A stretch of 63,390 bases of DNA, counting the filler, from Octopus bimaculoides (Eukaryota), in the NCBI RefSeq assembly GCF_001194135.2. It is 5 parts of 5 records of this genome, joined end to end, with 100 filler letters (N's around TTAATTAATTAA, not from the genome) between each part and the next. Parts side by side here need not be neighbours in the genome. Positions count along the whole stretch, not along the records: positions 1 to 20,369 come from NC_068985.1; positions 20,470 to 37,468 come from NC_068981.1; positions 37,569 to 39,674 come from NW_026365578.1; positions 39,775 to 62,080 come from NC_068988.1; 1 more part is not named here. The stretch is one strand, 5' to 3'. The notes beneath the pieces were generated by a model. It searched no databases. It was not told the origin of the DNA and saw nothing but the letters and a program-made list of their open reading frames with translations. This document shows positions 9,858 to 40,240 of the stretch, piece by piece; positions within the stretch are counted from its first letter, which is position 1; the number at the start of each line of letters is the position of its first letter. The position numbers and the translations under genes are program-made.

Positions 9858-10049
9858 TTTATTCAGAAAAAAAAAAATCTATGGTGGAACAACCGATAGA
9901 ATTAGATAACTATTTTAAAACAGAAGAAAACAAGTGAATAACAAGAGGAATTTGCTGCATCAATGCTTTGAAAGGCTTGTCATGTAGAAATTCCTCGTAT
10001 ATATTGGTGCACGAAGCGATTTTGCCATGTGACCGCTATAATTTTTATT
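9858..10049 (-). promoter_or_regulatory. Proximal 3' UTR with candidate polyadenylation signals
   Basis: AATAAA on minus strand at 10044-10049 (overlapping the stop codon) and 9858-9863. Confidence 0.3.
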
Positions 10050-10141
10050 TAGTGAGATACTATAAAGTTAAACAGAAGAATAACGAGGCTGATGACCGTC
10101 ATGAAGGCTTGGCTACAGACAGATTCAATTCCAGCAGCACC
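10049..10141 (-). CDS. Terminal coding exon (exon 3) of a putative small GPI-anchored glycoprotein: GAAGIESVCSQAFMTVISLVILLFNFIVSH*
   Basis: Strong acceptor on minus strand (tttcttttttcttttttatgcag|GGT). Phase 0 matches the phase-0 end of the exon at 12382. Small residues (S|GAA), then a polar spacer, then a hydrophobic tail ending at TAA (10049-10051) with no cytoplasmic tail: canonical GPI-signal layout. Confidence 0.75.
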   Translation of the reverse strand, partial: GAAGIESVCSQAFMTVISLVILLFNFIVSH

Positions 10142-10302
10142 CTGCATAAAAAAGAAAAAAGAAATTTCAACAACAACGAAAATTGTACGTAGTTATTGGG
10201 ATATTCAAAATTTCTAACTTAATATATATAATTACACATTTCTAAGCAAAGGGGAAGTACAGTCGATTAAATTGATCAGAGCATTTAATTGTCCTTCAAT
10301 AA

Positions 10303-10462
10303 AGTTCTATATTTAAGAGACGATGAATTATGTACATTATTCACATTAGACAGATATTTGTCCTCATCTTGTTTGTTGTTAACACATTGTTTCGGCTGAT
10401 ATACCCTCCAGCCTTCATCAGGTGACTTGGGGAAATTTCGAACCTGGGTTCTCATTCCTAAG
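10303..10462 (-). mobile_element. Penelope-like terminal (pLTR-type) repeat fragment with hammerhead-like core
   Basis: Minus strand CTGATGA-a-GGCTG(gagggtatat)CAGCC-GAAAC; homologous copy at ~56050-56230. Family assignment is inference. Confidence 0.5.
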
Positions 10463-10485
10463 ATTATTATTATTATTATTGTTGG

Positions 10486-10521
<36 letters not shown>

Positions 10522-10906
10522 CGTTTTTTTTTTCTTCTTTCTTCAAATTCTCTTCCATTTCTCGCCGAGTGTTTTCCGTACACCTAGGGCAGAGAAGCTC
10601 ATTGTATGCATTCCCAGTTTACACACGCAAATTCACAGGTAAAATATGTATTTAAAAAAATTAATAATTAAATAAATTCATGAATGAATGTTGTTTTCAC
10701 AGCGATAATGCTCTTCTCAGTATATGAGTCGTTCCAGTTAATACTATTTTTTGCACTTCCTTCAGGGATGATAATCCTGGTATCATTTTCAAATAGGCTT
10801 CAGCACCGTTTTTTATCATTCCTAGAGCTCCTACAATCACTATACGGTAGTCTCCTCAAGATGCCACATTTTTTCAATTTCTATTAGCAAGTCTTTATAT
10901 TTACTG

Positions 10907-10980
<74 letters not shown>

Positions 10981-11002
10981 GGTCACTGCCTGGAATCGAA
11001 CT

Positions 11003-11865
11003 CATTTTCGATGGTGCCTTCAGGTTTGTGGTCGTACCAAGTTTTTGCTCTGCCAAGTCCATATTTGTTGCAAAATGTCCAATGGACAAGCCTTGCTATG
11101 TTGTTATGACGTCTCTTATATTCTTTCTGGGCTAGTGGCGTACATTGACAGGTAATATGCCATACGGTTTCACTATTTTGTCCGCAAATTCTGCACTTAT
11201 CACTTTCTGATGTTTTGTGTATTCTGTATTTGATGTAATTGGTTCTTAGTGCTTGCTCTTGGGCAGCACAGATTAGAGGCTCCGTTTCCAGGTTTAAATC
11301 ACTTTTAGTCATCCATAGCCATTTTTTATCTCTCTGTCTTATCTTCAACATCCCTATGAAATTGTCCATGCATTCCTTTCTTTATCCCCTTATTTTCAGT
11401 TTCATTCATTCTCAAGTCCTTGTACAGCGCTTTTTCTTTACAATTTTCCATCCTACACAAGCCTGACCTTGTTACTTCCAATAATAGCGGTTCATAGCGG
11501 TTCATAGAGTCTGTTTGTGTCATTTTTGGGGTGTAGAATCCCATATCTATTCAGCACCTTCCTTCTATTTCTGTCTAAGCTGTTTAGTTCGTCTACTGTC
11601 CATGCGATTACCCCTGCTCCATATCTGAGTTGTGAAACCGCCCAGGTGTTGATAGTTTCAATCTTATTTCGTCCGTTTAATTTCGACTTATGGATCAGTC
11701 TCAGTCTGCGCAAGTAATCCACCTTCAATTTTTCTGTCATTTCTTTCTCCATCAATTTATCCATTCCCAATATCCCCAAGTACTTATAGCCCATCTCTTC
11801 TATTTACTTCATAACCTCCCCCGACGGTATCGCTATCCCGTCCATACATTTGATTGTGCCTCTCT

Positions 11866-11867
<2 letters not shown>
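11003..11867 (-). mobile_element. R4/Dong-like (RLE-type) non-LTR retrotransposon internal fragment: RT thumb to CCHC finger
   Basis: GYKYLGI, KSKLNGRNKIETINTWAVSQLRYGAG, MHGQF, ICAAQEQALRTNY, CRICGQNSETVWHITCQC, KRRHNNIARLVHW. Flanked on both sides by (TTA)n. Confidence 0.85.
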
Positions 11868-11956
<89 letters not shown>

Positions 11957-12125
11957 ATAAGGTGTTGAGTTGAACTGGCAGAATCACGAGCACGCTGGAC
12001 GAAATGCTTAGCGGTATTTCGTCTGCCGCTACGTTCTGAGTTCAAATTGCATACTGAGGTCGATCTAATCGACTAGTCCCCTCCCTCAAAATTTCAGGGT
12101 TTGTGCCTATAGAAGAAAGAATTAC
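11957..12125 (+). mobile_element. SINE family A, internally deleted copy
   Basis: Head, then a jump to gtcgatctaatcgac, then the agaagaaagaattact tail. Confidence 0.75.
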
Positions 12126-37468: not shown

Positions 37469-37863
37469 NNNNNNNNNNNNNNNNNNNNNNNNNNNNNNNN
37501 NNNNNNNNNNNNTTAATTAATTAANNNNNNNNNNNNNNNNNNNNNNNNNNNNNNNNNNNNNNNNNNNNCAGATACACATATATTTCTCAACAAAATTGTA
37601 AAAGACGATTACCACTTTCGAAAATAAAAATATCTTTTTTAAAAAAGTAGGTTTATTACAGAATGGGAAGTAAATGATGGATCTCCGTTCTTTTATTTTC
37701 CTTAAAGAAAGCTTACGAATAGACATTTGATTTTCTCTACGACGTTACTTTCCTCACAATACGAAATGCCATCCAAACACCCATCCATCCATCCGTAGGT
37801 ATAAAAAGAACACAAACAGAACCTCTAATACACACACACATAGTTCAATGAAACAAAGAACTA

Positions 37864-38520
37864 CGAGGTGGTATGAAAAAAGTTCTCGGAATTGTTCTGT
37901 AGCGTTCCAACAGATGGCTGCACATGGTTGTGTGAGCCGTGAGAGCTAGCGGTGATCTTCATGAAGAAGTGTGCGGAGTGACATTGCTGTGTTACTTTGC
38001 AAGTTGTGACATTTGTGTTTTCGTGATCATTCGTATGCTGTAGTCTGCAATGTTGTCAGGAACAAAGGGCCAACGTGAAATTTTGCGTTAAACTTGGGAA
38101 GTCTGCTACAGAGACACTTCGCGGGACGCTTAAAAAGCGGAAGAACGTCCCTGGAAGACAATGAACGATCTGTCACAAACGTCACCCTCGGAAATGCGAA
38201 GAAAATTCATCAGCTTGTGCATGAGGGTCGTCAGAGGACAATTGACAACATGGCTGATGTTGTTGGTCTCTCGTATAGGTCCGTACGGGACTCATATCGT
38301 CTGAATGGAACATGCAGCGTATCTCTGCCAAGTTTCTCTCCCGCCTACTGACCACTGGGCAGAAAGAACATCGCGTCGAATTCAGTCAAGATCTCTGTCA
38401 GTGTGTCGCTGTTGATCCATTCTTCATGTCGAGGATCATCACCGGTGATGAGAGTTGTGTCTGCAGGTACGACTTTGTGACGAAACATCAGTCAACACAA
38501 TGGAAGAGCCCTGCATAGTT
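37864..38520 (+). mobile_element. Mariner element, 5' half (second family)
   Basis: TA + cgaggtggtatgaaaaaagttctcgg TIR; KFCVKLGKSATET, SGRTSLEDNER, SAKFLSRLLT, SRIITGDES..YDFVTKHQSTQWKSP. Confidence 0.8.
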
Positions 38521-38720
38521 CCAAAGATCCCAGCAATGACATCGCGCTTCAGGACCAGTTACTTCAACAGCCTGGGTTTCAGAGACAATCAGCTTTTTAA
38601 TATTCTCCCAAAGAGGCTGAGGAATCTCCACAAAATAGATGTCGAGAGTCCCAGATGAACTTACCACACCGCAAGAGGTGCAAATGAGGGTAGCTACATC
38701 AAACTCCATTCTACAAGTGC
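38520..38720 (+). mobile_element. CR1/L2-group LINE 3' fragment
   Basis: RTSYFNSLGFRDNQLFNILPKRLRNLHKIDV..VPDE, a recalled C-terminal pattern of this LINE group. Confidence 0.5.
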
Positions 38721-38807
38721 CATATATTAAAAGGAAAATCTCAGTAATAAAAGTGTAGCAAAACGGCGCTGCTCCAGCATGGCCACAGCTATGAGCTGAA
38801 ACTACAA

Positions 38808-38850
<43 letters not shown>

Positions 38851-39213
38851 TATATGTATTTAAATTTATATAAGTAAGGATAAGATCGTTATTAAAAATA
38901 CCGATCCTATCAGGTGGCCAGCATGGGAATAAAAACCTCAAAAGGTAATAAGTATTATTAAAATTATTGTGGTTTTAGAGTCAAGATTTGGTTGCTATTT
39001 CAACCATGGTAGTATCTCTTAGATACCCTTCCTGGGGTATGTACAACTGTCCGCATGGCAGCCACGACTATTGATTCCAAACCGAAAGAAATATATGGCC
39101 ACACATGTATAAATTTCTATATATATGACGATAAGATCGTTATTTTAAATAACGATCAAATCAAGTGGCAGCATGGGCAGAAAAACCTTATAGGTTATAA
39201 TTATTATTAAAAC

Positions 39214-39501
39214 TATAAATAAGGGTATCTAAGAGATACCACCATGCTTGAAATAGCAGTCAAAACCTGACTAAAATCCACATCAAGTGTTCAATACAGC
39301 ACAAGGTGAAAAGACAAATAGATAAATAAACTAATAAAAATTGGATAATTCCAGACCCTGGGTTCTGTATAAAAATACTTTGCCTTTGTCAATAATATAT
39401 ACCAAGAATTGTACATTATATTGAACATTTGATGGCTTTAGAGTCAGGTTTTGACTGCTATTTGAAGCATGATGGTATCTCTTAGATTACTCTTATTTAT
39501 A
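39214..39501. mobile_element. MITE with ~65-bp TIRs
   Basis: tataaataagggtatctaagagataccaccatgcttgaaatagcagtcaaaacctgactaaa is inverted at tttagagtcaggttttgactgctatttgaagcatgatggtatctcttagattactcttatttata. Confidence 0.7.
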
Positions 39502-39774
39502 ATTTTATATTATATATATTAGTAACTTTTCGTTCAGATAAGAGCAACAAAAATTGTACTCCATCCAGTAAGAGATAAATATCATTGAATGTACACAGTA
39601 CATACGAGCTACAAATACTTTCTTTCTCAGAAGATTGCTTGGAGGCACAAGCCGTGTTATAAAAACTTACCCGGNNNNNNNNNNNNNNNNNNNNNNNNNN
39701 NNNNNNNNNNNNNNNNNNTTAATTAATTAANNNNNNNNNNNNNNNNNNNNNNNNNNNNNNNNNNNNNNNNNNNN

Positions 39775-39810
<36 letters not shown>

Positions 39811-39969
39811 ATACAGTTCTTAATATGAATTGCCACTCCTCGTAGATGCATCGTGCGCCTTTATTTCCTGGCCTTGAGTTTATATGAGAAAACATCATTA
39901 CTAGAAGAATAAAGAATACGATATCATTTTTTTCTCATCACATCTACTACTACTACTGTNNNNNNNNNN

Positions 39970-40031
<62 letters not shown>

Positions 40032-40176
40032 GCAGTAGTATTCTTAGTGATAGTAGTAGTAGTTGTAGCAGTAGTAGTAGTGGTGGGTTTGGTGTTGATC
40101 TTAACTTGTACACGTATATGCAGAGATACTAATTTGAAAAAGTTTACTGCTTACATCTGCATTGCTTCATACATAC

Positions 40177-40240
40177 ATCCAAAAGTTGAGAGAAAAAAAA
40201 GACCCAAAACAAAAATACAAAACCAAAGATAGACACGCAT
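40177..40240 (-). CDS. Candidate first coding exon (signal peptide MRVYLWFCIFVLGLFFLSTFG + 1 nt)
   Basis: ATG with purine at -3, Arg in the n-region, long hydrophobic core, donor GAT|gtatgt in phase 1. T|TG joins exon 2 to give ...STFGLVA-QNVTT, a plausible cleavage site. Caveats: T-rich DNA makes hydrophobic codons by chance, and the intron crosses three unsized gaps. Confidence 0.55.

What the first reader, a model, noticed from the sequence alone, without database searches (positions are those of the whole stretch)
10049..40240. Hidden 3-exon gene for a miniature GPI-anchored glycopeptide (CD24/CD52-like architecture) in a cephalopod-type genome
Seen in sequence: splicing 40240-40177, 12488-12382 and 10141-10049 gives 264 nt in one frame with all phases matching (1/1, 0/0) and GT-AG sites. 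The product is MRVYLWFCIFVLGLFFLSTFGLVA-QNVTTNAASATYPSTSVNGSTTVAPISNSTSKS-GAAGIESVCSQAFMTVISLVILLFNFIVSH. The predicted mature peptide is only ~33 aa, with 15 Ser/Thr, three N-glycosylation sequons, no Cys and no folded domain. Established: this layout (signal + tiny glycan scaffold + GPI signal) is that of vertebrate CD24 and CD52, which act as glycan-displaying immune/neural surface ligands. Inference: an independently evolved invertebrate counterpart that ORF-length filters would miss; each exon is below the track threshold. I claim shared architecture, not homology.
Basis: partly seen in the sequence, partly recalled or inferred. Interest (0 to 1): 0.85.

Follow-up and report, generated by a model that had tools for sequence, protein, structure and literature searches.

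The report
Octopus CD24-like miniature surface glycopeptide
This is a real, spliced and strongly expressed octopus gene, already catalogued as an uncharacterised 88-residue protein and with its first exon outside the readable window, whose product is likely trimmed to a tiny sugar-coated peptide held on the cell surface by a lipid anchor, the layout of vertebrate CD24 but probably evolved separately.

Summary
Exons 2 (12488-12382) and 3 (10141-10049) are real: 3,405 RNA reads and contigs of three more runs join them. 2,648 reads continue upstream into another sequence that is absent from the window, and 60 decoys like it pass loose rules there. The true protein is already on record as uncharacterised Octopus bimaculoides A0A0L8GHD1 (88 aa), with one orthologue in O. 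vulgaris, so the gene is not hidden. The architecture survives: hydrophobic signal, a 33-residue Ser/Thr/Asn-rich disordered core, and a hydrophobic tail shaped like a GPI signal that starts exactly at exon 3. Between the two species the flanks are 85% identical, the core 36%, with two of three N-glycan sites kept. A language-model search ranks CD24 first (0.91), but Pfam and phmmer find no CD24 or CD52 match: likely convergence. GPI anchoring, glycosylation, tissue and partner are untested. Tiny GPI glycopeptides are already known in vertebrates and plants. Verdict: new member of a known kind; interest 0.38.

The parts
12382..12488 (-). Coding exon 2 (107 nt): last residues of the signal peptide and the whole predicted mature core (codon 23 to S58 of P0002)
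   Evidence: Depth about 4,000 in X24 against under 3 in the bin beside it; in contigs of X1, X3, X16; tblastn of P0002
10049..10141 (-). Coding part of exon 3 (93 nt with stop): G59-H88, the predicted GPI-addition signal
   Evidence: Junction reads; 30 of 30 residues identical to P0002
9675..10048 (-). 3' UTR (374 nt) ending at the poly(A) site
   Evidence: X1 and X16 contigs run 9675/9674-10140 without differences; poly(T) loose end at 9675; read ends at 9670-9684
9687..9692 (-). AATAAA polyadenylation signal, 12-17 nt before the cleavage site
   Evidence: Sequence and read ends
10142..12381 (-). Intron 2 (2,240 nt, phase 0, GT-AG), falling exactly between the predicted anchor residue S58 and G59
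   Evidence: 3,405 reads skip it; splice sites
12489..63390 (-). Intron 1 (phase 1). The true exon 1 (5' UTR plus codons 1-22) is not in the readable window: it lies beyond 63390 (intron over 50.9 kb) or inside one of 8 N gaps of 128-941 nt
   Evidence: Loose-end sequence absent from window; residues 1-22 of P0002 not encoded; gap list
40177..40240 (-).
   Evidence: Reads continue into another sequence; one of 60 decoys; absent from P0002 and P0003

Best explanation
The locus holds exons 2 and 3 of a spliced, polyadenylated, strongly expressed Octopus gene for an 88-residue protein that is likely cut after A25 and at about S58, leaving a roughly 33-residue disordered peptide that would carry N- and O-linked sugars and would be held on the outer cell membrane by a GPI lipid anchor. 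Shown: exons, splicing, 3' end, protein sequence, one orthologue, conserved flanks with a divergent core. Inferred: the signal sends it into the ER; the transamidase swaps residues 59-88 for GPI; N27, N43, N53 and up to 15 Ser/Thr are glycosylated, so that sugar would outweigh the 3.2-kDa peptide. With no folded domain and no cytoplasmic tail it would work as a glycan-display scaffold in the cell coat, binding lectin-type or adhesion receptors and signalling only through partners in lipid rafts, as CD24 is thought to. The likeness to CD24 is likely convergent.
For: Splicing, poly(A) and depth; about 2,000 reads per kb per million reads in X24, a rough figure. 18 of 20 holder runs hold 0.58-0.67 of the query words, close to the exonic share 0.666 (only 3 of the 20 were laid). 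Hydropathy peaks at residues 5-25 and 69-88 (11-residue means up to 2.9) with a polar middle. V-x-A|Q fits the (-3,-1) signal rule in both species (rule recalled). S58-G59-A60 is a small-residue anchor site shared by both species, followed by a spacer, an 18-residue hydrophobic tail and no basic cytoplasmic residues (rule recalled, general layout as in PMC6726743). The three exons match signal, core and anchor signal. Identity to O. vulgaris: signal 22/25, tail 25/30, core 12/33, Fisher p = 4e-6, with N27-x-T and N53-x-T kept. AlphaFold gives two helices and a low-confidence middle (2-sequence alignment). CD24 is the first language-model hit for both orthologues, 0.91 and 0.90.
Against: No SignalP, NetGPI or PredGPI was available; both cleavage sites rest on hand rules. 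The third sequon (N43) is lost in O. vulgaris, and 4 of 6 sequon residues kept among 12 of 33 is not significant (hand calculation, p about 0.11). Only two species hold a detectable orthologue. The CD24 hit shares 164 and 157 of 256 features, under the 170 typical of true family members, and 4-10 in 100 shuffled proteins reach 0.9. No tissue, glycan or binding data: the receptor-ligand role is pure analogy.
Confidence: 0.7

Rival explanations
1. Same processing, but only a bulk coat: an abundant mini-mucin that hydrates, lubricates or shields an epithelium or blood cell and has no specific receptor. The core diverges because little constrains it.
For: Very high transcript level in the one raw run; core identity only 36% while composition is kept; weak compositional hit of the orthologue to the fly new-glue family, E 0.029, under the cut-off.
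Against: The core length (31-33) and both terminal sequons are kept; nothing tested here tells bulk from specific function. This rival shares the GPI processing with the best explanation and differs only in the last step; I split that step about evenly.
Confidence: 0.35
2. The C-terminal hydrophobic stretch is not cleaved: a small single-pass (type I or tail-anchored) membrane glycoprotein with almost no cytoplasmic tail.
For: Residues 70-87 are long and hydrophobic enough to span a membrane; the tail, including ESVCSQA with a Cys that could be acylated or dimerise, is 83% conserved.
Against: Only Ser-His follows the hydrophobic stretch, with no basic stop-transfer residues; a small-residue S-G-A site lies 30 residues from the end in both species.
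Confidence: 0.17
3. The N-terminal hydrophobic stretch is an uncleaved signal anchor, so the protein is tied at both ends (peptide anchor plus GPI) as a short glycosylated loop, a topology recalled for tetherin.
For: The N-terminal hydrophobic stretch is 19 residues long and 88% conserved.
Against: A good (-3,-1) site, V-x-A|Q, is kept in both species; the core has no coiled-coil character. The conservation may just be the usual level between these two species, which I could not measure.
Confidence: 0.08
4. A true, very distant homologue of vertebrate CD24 or CD52.
For: CD24 is the first hit by language-model features for both orthologues; similar precursor and core lengths (76-82 and 27-32 residues for CD24, PMC9680537).
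Against: No CD24 or CD52 match in Pfam, in phmmer over 1.84 billion proteins or in PDB sequences; CD24 is traced only to before the reptile-bird split (PMC9680537); no intermediate in any other animal was found; the feature count is under the family level.
Confidence: 0.04

Closest known systems
UniRef100_A0A0L8GHD1 (Octopus bimaculoides, uncharacterised, 88 aa) and CAI9723385.1 / A0AA36AW32 (Octopus vulgaris, hypothetical, 86 aa)
   Same: The first is this gene's product (residues 23-88 encoded in the window, residues 12-21 seen in reads); the second is its orthologue, 67-69% identical over the whole length.
   Different: Neither record carries a name or function; none of the three accessions is in the paper library.
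Vertebrate CD24 (Pfam PF14984)
   Same: Signal + 27-32-residue glycosylated core + GPI signal in a 76-82-residue precursor, no intracellular domain, glycan-dependent binding (PMC9680537, PMC5186806, passages). First language-model hit.
   Different: No sequence match. CD24 is traced to amniotes only. The octopus gene has three coding exons with an intron at the anchor site (CD24 has two, recalled). Its best-known partner Siglec-10 is vertebrate (recalled).
Vertebrate CD52
   Same: Tiny GPI-anchored glycopeptide (recalled); binds Siglec-10 (PMC7379889, passage).
   Different: Core of about 12 residues with one N-glycan (recalled) against 33 with 2-3 sequons; no sequence match.
Plant arabinogalactan (AG) peptides, e.g. 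AGP12-16, AGP20-24
   Same: Signal + 10-13-residue glycan scaffold + GPI signal in 50-90-residue precursors (PMC5372829, PMC6726743, passages); AGP23 appears at 0.77 in the language-model search; Pro+Ala+Ser+Thr is 38 of 88 residues here (hand count), above their 35% screen.
   Different: AG peptides carry sugars on hydroxyproline in Ala-Pro/Ser-Pro repeats; the octopus core has 2 Pro and uses N-sequons and Ser/Thr. They show that the layout has arisen more than once.

Membership tests
CD24 family (PF14984) | Sequence match to the family model or to a CD24 protein | tested here: not met
   No CD24 model among Pfam hits for P0002 (E up to 10) or P0003 (E up to 1); HMMER filters drop most matches above 0.1. 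No CD24 among 2 hits in 1.84 billion proteins. Language-model score 0.91/0.90 with 164/157 shared features, under the 170 mark.
CD24 family (PF14984) | Mature core of about 30 residues, rich in N- and O-glycosylation sites | tested here: met
   Predicted core 33 and 31 aa, 15 and 11 Ser/Thr, 3 and 2 sequons; depends on the predicted cut sites.
CD24 family (PF14984) | Occurrence within the family's range (amniotes) or intermediates linking to it | tested here: not met
   Range from PMC9680537 (passage); relatives found only in two Octopus species.
CD24 family (PF14984) | Shared gene neighbours and intron positions | not testable with these tools
   No whole genome is held; no other host gene was recognised in the window.
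CD24 family (PF14984) | Glycan-dependent binding to Siglec-10, L1CAM, P-selectin, contactin | not testable with these tools
   Partners from PMC5186806 (passages); needs bench work.
CD52 family | Sequence match and a core of about 12 residues (length recalled) | tested here: not met
   No CD52 match; core 31-33 aa.
Plant AG peptides | [quoted passage not shown] | tested here: not met
   Core 33 aa with 2 Pro; definition from PMC5372829 (passages).
GPI-anchored proteins (class) | N-terminal hydrophobic ER signal | tested here: met
   Hydropathy up to 2.9 over residues 5-25, V-x-A|Q in both species; hand rule, no SignalP.
GPI-anchored proteins (class) | Small residues at the anchor site, spacer, hydrophobic C-terminus, no cytoplasmic tail | tested here: met
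   S58-G59-A60 in both species, 30-residue propeptide ending in S-H; hand rule, no trained predictor; A60 is a second shared candidate, and S68 leaves no spacer.
GPI-anchored proteins (class) | Anchor shown chemically (PI-PLC release, anchor peptide) | not testable with these tools
   Bench test needed.

The most novel reading that the evidence does not exclude
Octopuses independently evolved a working counterpart of CD24: an abundant GPI-anchored glycopeptide whose fast-changing core and cell-specific sugars act as a self or cell-identity tag read by lectin or adhesion receptors on haemocytes or neurons, with the core under positive selection.
Probability: 0.15. Interest if true: 0.72.

Novelty: new member of a known kind. 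Interest (0 to 1): 0.38.

Why it matters
It gives a concrete, testable identity to an abundant, uncharacterised octopus transcript. If it is GPI-anchored it adds a mollusc to the short list of lineages with a minimal glycan-display peptide, a case of convergence with CD24/CD52 and plant AG peptides. It would also be a candidate surface marker in animals that have few. The pattern of conserved signals around a fast-changing core is what a recognition molecule or a relaxed spacer would show, and can be told apart with more species. Sequence search cannot find such proteins across phyla, so a search by architecture may reveal more. It does not yet bear on how cephalopod immunity or neural wiring works.

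Tried and rejected
Stalk of a large ectodomain: rejected, since three contigs end 162-210 nt above 12492 and both annotated proteins are 86-88 aa; contigs can break early, so long reads would close this. Peptide-hormone precursor: rejected, no dibasic sites and a hydrophobic C-terminus. P0004 (E 8e-5, 26%) is a protein kinase matched through a Ser/Thr-rich insert: dropped as compositional. Pfam DUF973, Chordopox_A33R and New_glue hits are far under their cut-offs. Structure look-alikes in the Atlas are helix-on-helix matches of poor models (pTM 0.31); no fold search was run on my model (pTM 0.35). No PDB sequence match; no Rfam family or tRNA in the window. No whole genome held. In one search no RNA holder was listed on record; X21-X23 hold next to none of the words, which is no proof of absence and was not followed. 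X16 is labelled organism B but its contig has 0 differences over 579 nt, so it is not counted as an independent orthologue. Direct depth on 40240-40177 was not obtained. Literature: 10 searches found no paper naming the three accessions, none linking octopus with CD24 and GPI beyond unrelated listings, and none on a cephalopod GPI glycopeptide; gene-model identifiers were not known to me and not searched, supplements (single-cell marker tables above all) were not searched, and subscription papers are missing. PubMed 28283679 (CD52 review) is not held. Three look-ups of earlier scan findings returned nothing.
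Full report
Observation. That alone is weak, so I looked for RNA. A search with 9500-10200 listed 24 runs, 20 of which hold half of the words or more, in 10 studies. Eighteen of the 20 hold 0.58-0.67, close to the share of the query that is exon (0.666), one 0.81 and one 1.00. I laid 3 of these 20 and one raw RNA run on 9300-12700.

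Exons 2 and 3 are real. The joint 10140/12381 is read by 1,723+1,682 reads from 214 start places in X24 and by one contig in each of X1, X3 and X16. Its ends are GT..AG on the minus strand. Depth on exon 2 is about 4,000, against under 3 in the two intron bins beside it, roughly 2,000 reads per kb per million reads (a rough figure from 6% of one run of unknown tissue). The X1 contig ends in poly(A) at 9675, AATAAA lies at 9692-9687, and the 3' UTR is 374 nt.

Exon 1 is wrong. At the 5' edge of exon 2, 2,648 reads with full agreement, and the three contigs, go on into one sequence that differs from 40240-40177. The reads fit the genome up to 12492 only because the true exon ends in the same four letters as the intron. 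This sequence has no match in the window at up to 3 mismatches and no exact piece over 10 nt. It reads AVIISLVAFT in frame with exon 2. Only 24 of 572 loose-end rows were shown, and depth on 40240-40177 was not measured, so rare use is not excluded.

The protein is on record. A search with the exon 2 frame found 1 protein among 58 candidates: UniRef100_A0A0L8GHD1, an uncharacterised 88-residue Octopus bimaculoides protein (P0002). Its residues 12-21 are the peptide from the reads and its residues 23-88 are exons 2 and 3; residues 1-22 are not encoded in the window. Exon 1 therefore lies beyond 63390 (intron over 50.9 kb) or in one of 8 N gaps of 128-941 nt. The first is more likely if the record was predicted from this assembly (inference). 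The contigs reach 162, 210 and 175 nt above 12492, room for 63 more coding bases and a 5' UTR but not for a large ectodomain.

Relatives. Searches with P0002 (2 hits among 3 candidates), with the two-sequence profile (2 among 60) and phmmer over 1.84 billion representatives (2 hits) give one orthologue, O. vulgaris CAI9723385.1 (P0003, 86 aa), and one kinase matched by composition. No squid or other mollusc protein was found; for so short and simple a sequence this does not show absence. Identity by segment is 22/25 in the signal, 12/33 in the core and 25/30 in the tail (Fisher p = 4e-6, flanks against core). The core keeps its length (33, 31), its Ser/Thr/Ala bias (15 and 11 Ser/Thr), no Cys, and the sequons at both ends; the middle sequon is lost. 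I could not measure the usual identity between these species or dN/dS.

How it likely works. Residues 5-25 and 69-88 are hydrophobic, the middle polar; AlphaFold, on two sequences, gives two helices and a low-confidence middle. V-x-A|Q fits a signal cut after A25 in both species (rule recalled). S58-G59-A60 is kept in both and is followed by a spacer, a hydrophobic tail and only Ser-His, the layout of a GPI-addition signal (rule recalled; general layout in PMC6726743, passages). A60 is a second shared candidate; S68 leaves no spacer. Intron 1 falls at the end of the signal and intron 2 exactly after S58, so each exon carries one part. The product would be a 3.2-kDa peptide carrying more sugar than protein, displayed on the cell surface without any intracellular part. 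I put GPI anchoring with a cleaved signal at about 0.7. Whether it is a specific ligand or a bulk coat is open, about even. A retained C-terminal membrane segment (0.17) and a double anchor (0.08) are the other topologies.

Comparison with what is known. It works like CD24, by inference: CD24 has a 27-32-residue core from a 76-82-residue precursor, is GPI-anchored, has no intracellular domain and binds through its glycans (PMC9680537 and PMC5186806, passages). A language-model search ranks CD24 first for both orthologues (0.91 and 0.90), but with 164 and 157 shared features, under the 170 typical of family members, and shuffled proteins reach 0.9 in 4-10 of 100 cases. It is not a member: no CD24 or CD52 match in Pfam, phmmer or PDB sequences, and CD24 is traced only to before the reptile-bird split (PMC9680537, passage). 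Plant AG peptides, GPI-anchored and 10-13 residues long (PMC5372829 and PMC6726743, passages), show that the layout has evolved more than once. Facts on CD52 size, CD24 exon number and the vertebrate range of Siglecs are recalled; PMC7379889 (passages) gave only CD52-Siglec-10 binding, and PMC13624744, PMC6524697 and PMC7709112 (passages) added nothing used here.

Novelty. Ten literature searches found no paper with the three accessions and none describing such a cephalopod protein (listings only). Gene-model names and supplements were not searched, and single-cell marker tables may list the gene. The gene is thus annotated but uncharacterised, and its reading as a CD24-like GPI glycopeptide appears not to be in the searched papers. 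That is a new member of a known kind. The boldest reading left open, an independently evolved, fast-evolving cell-identity tag, I put at 0.15. Interest 0.38.

Noticed in passing
window 28478-29105 (-): Fragmented mariner-type transposase: HTH_48 (E 4e-9) and Transposase_1 (E 1.5e-20) in separate frames.
   Followed up: partly
window 21621-22254 (+) and 10983-11803 (-): Decayed non-LTR retrotransposon pieces: RVT_1 (E 4e-4) and zf-RVT (E 4e-4), both under their cut-offs; the second lies in intron 2.
   Followed up: partly
window 11989-12048 and 10300-10420: Short interspersed repeats in intron 2 with very high depth from copies elsewhere; the first has 6 further matches in the window, the second one at 56101-56229. 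No Rfam or tRNA match.
   Followed up: partly
window 337-2359 (-): Frames that look like pieces of a hAT-type transposase (weak DUF4371 hit, E 0.12; the family label is my recollection).
   Followed up: no
window 12586-12800 (-): Repeat just upstream of exon 2 that reads like the end of a Tc1-type transposon (by eye); reads laid there carry many differences.
   Followed up: no
window 1-63390: No second host gene was recognised among 20 frames scanned; 5,400 N and 99 tandem-repeat rows. Genes with short exons could be missed, as only 9300-12700 was checked with RNA.
   Followed up: partly
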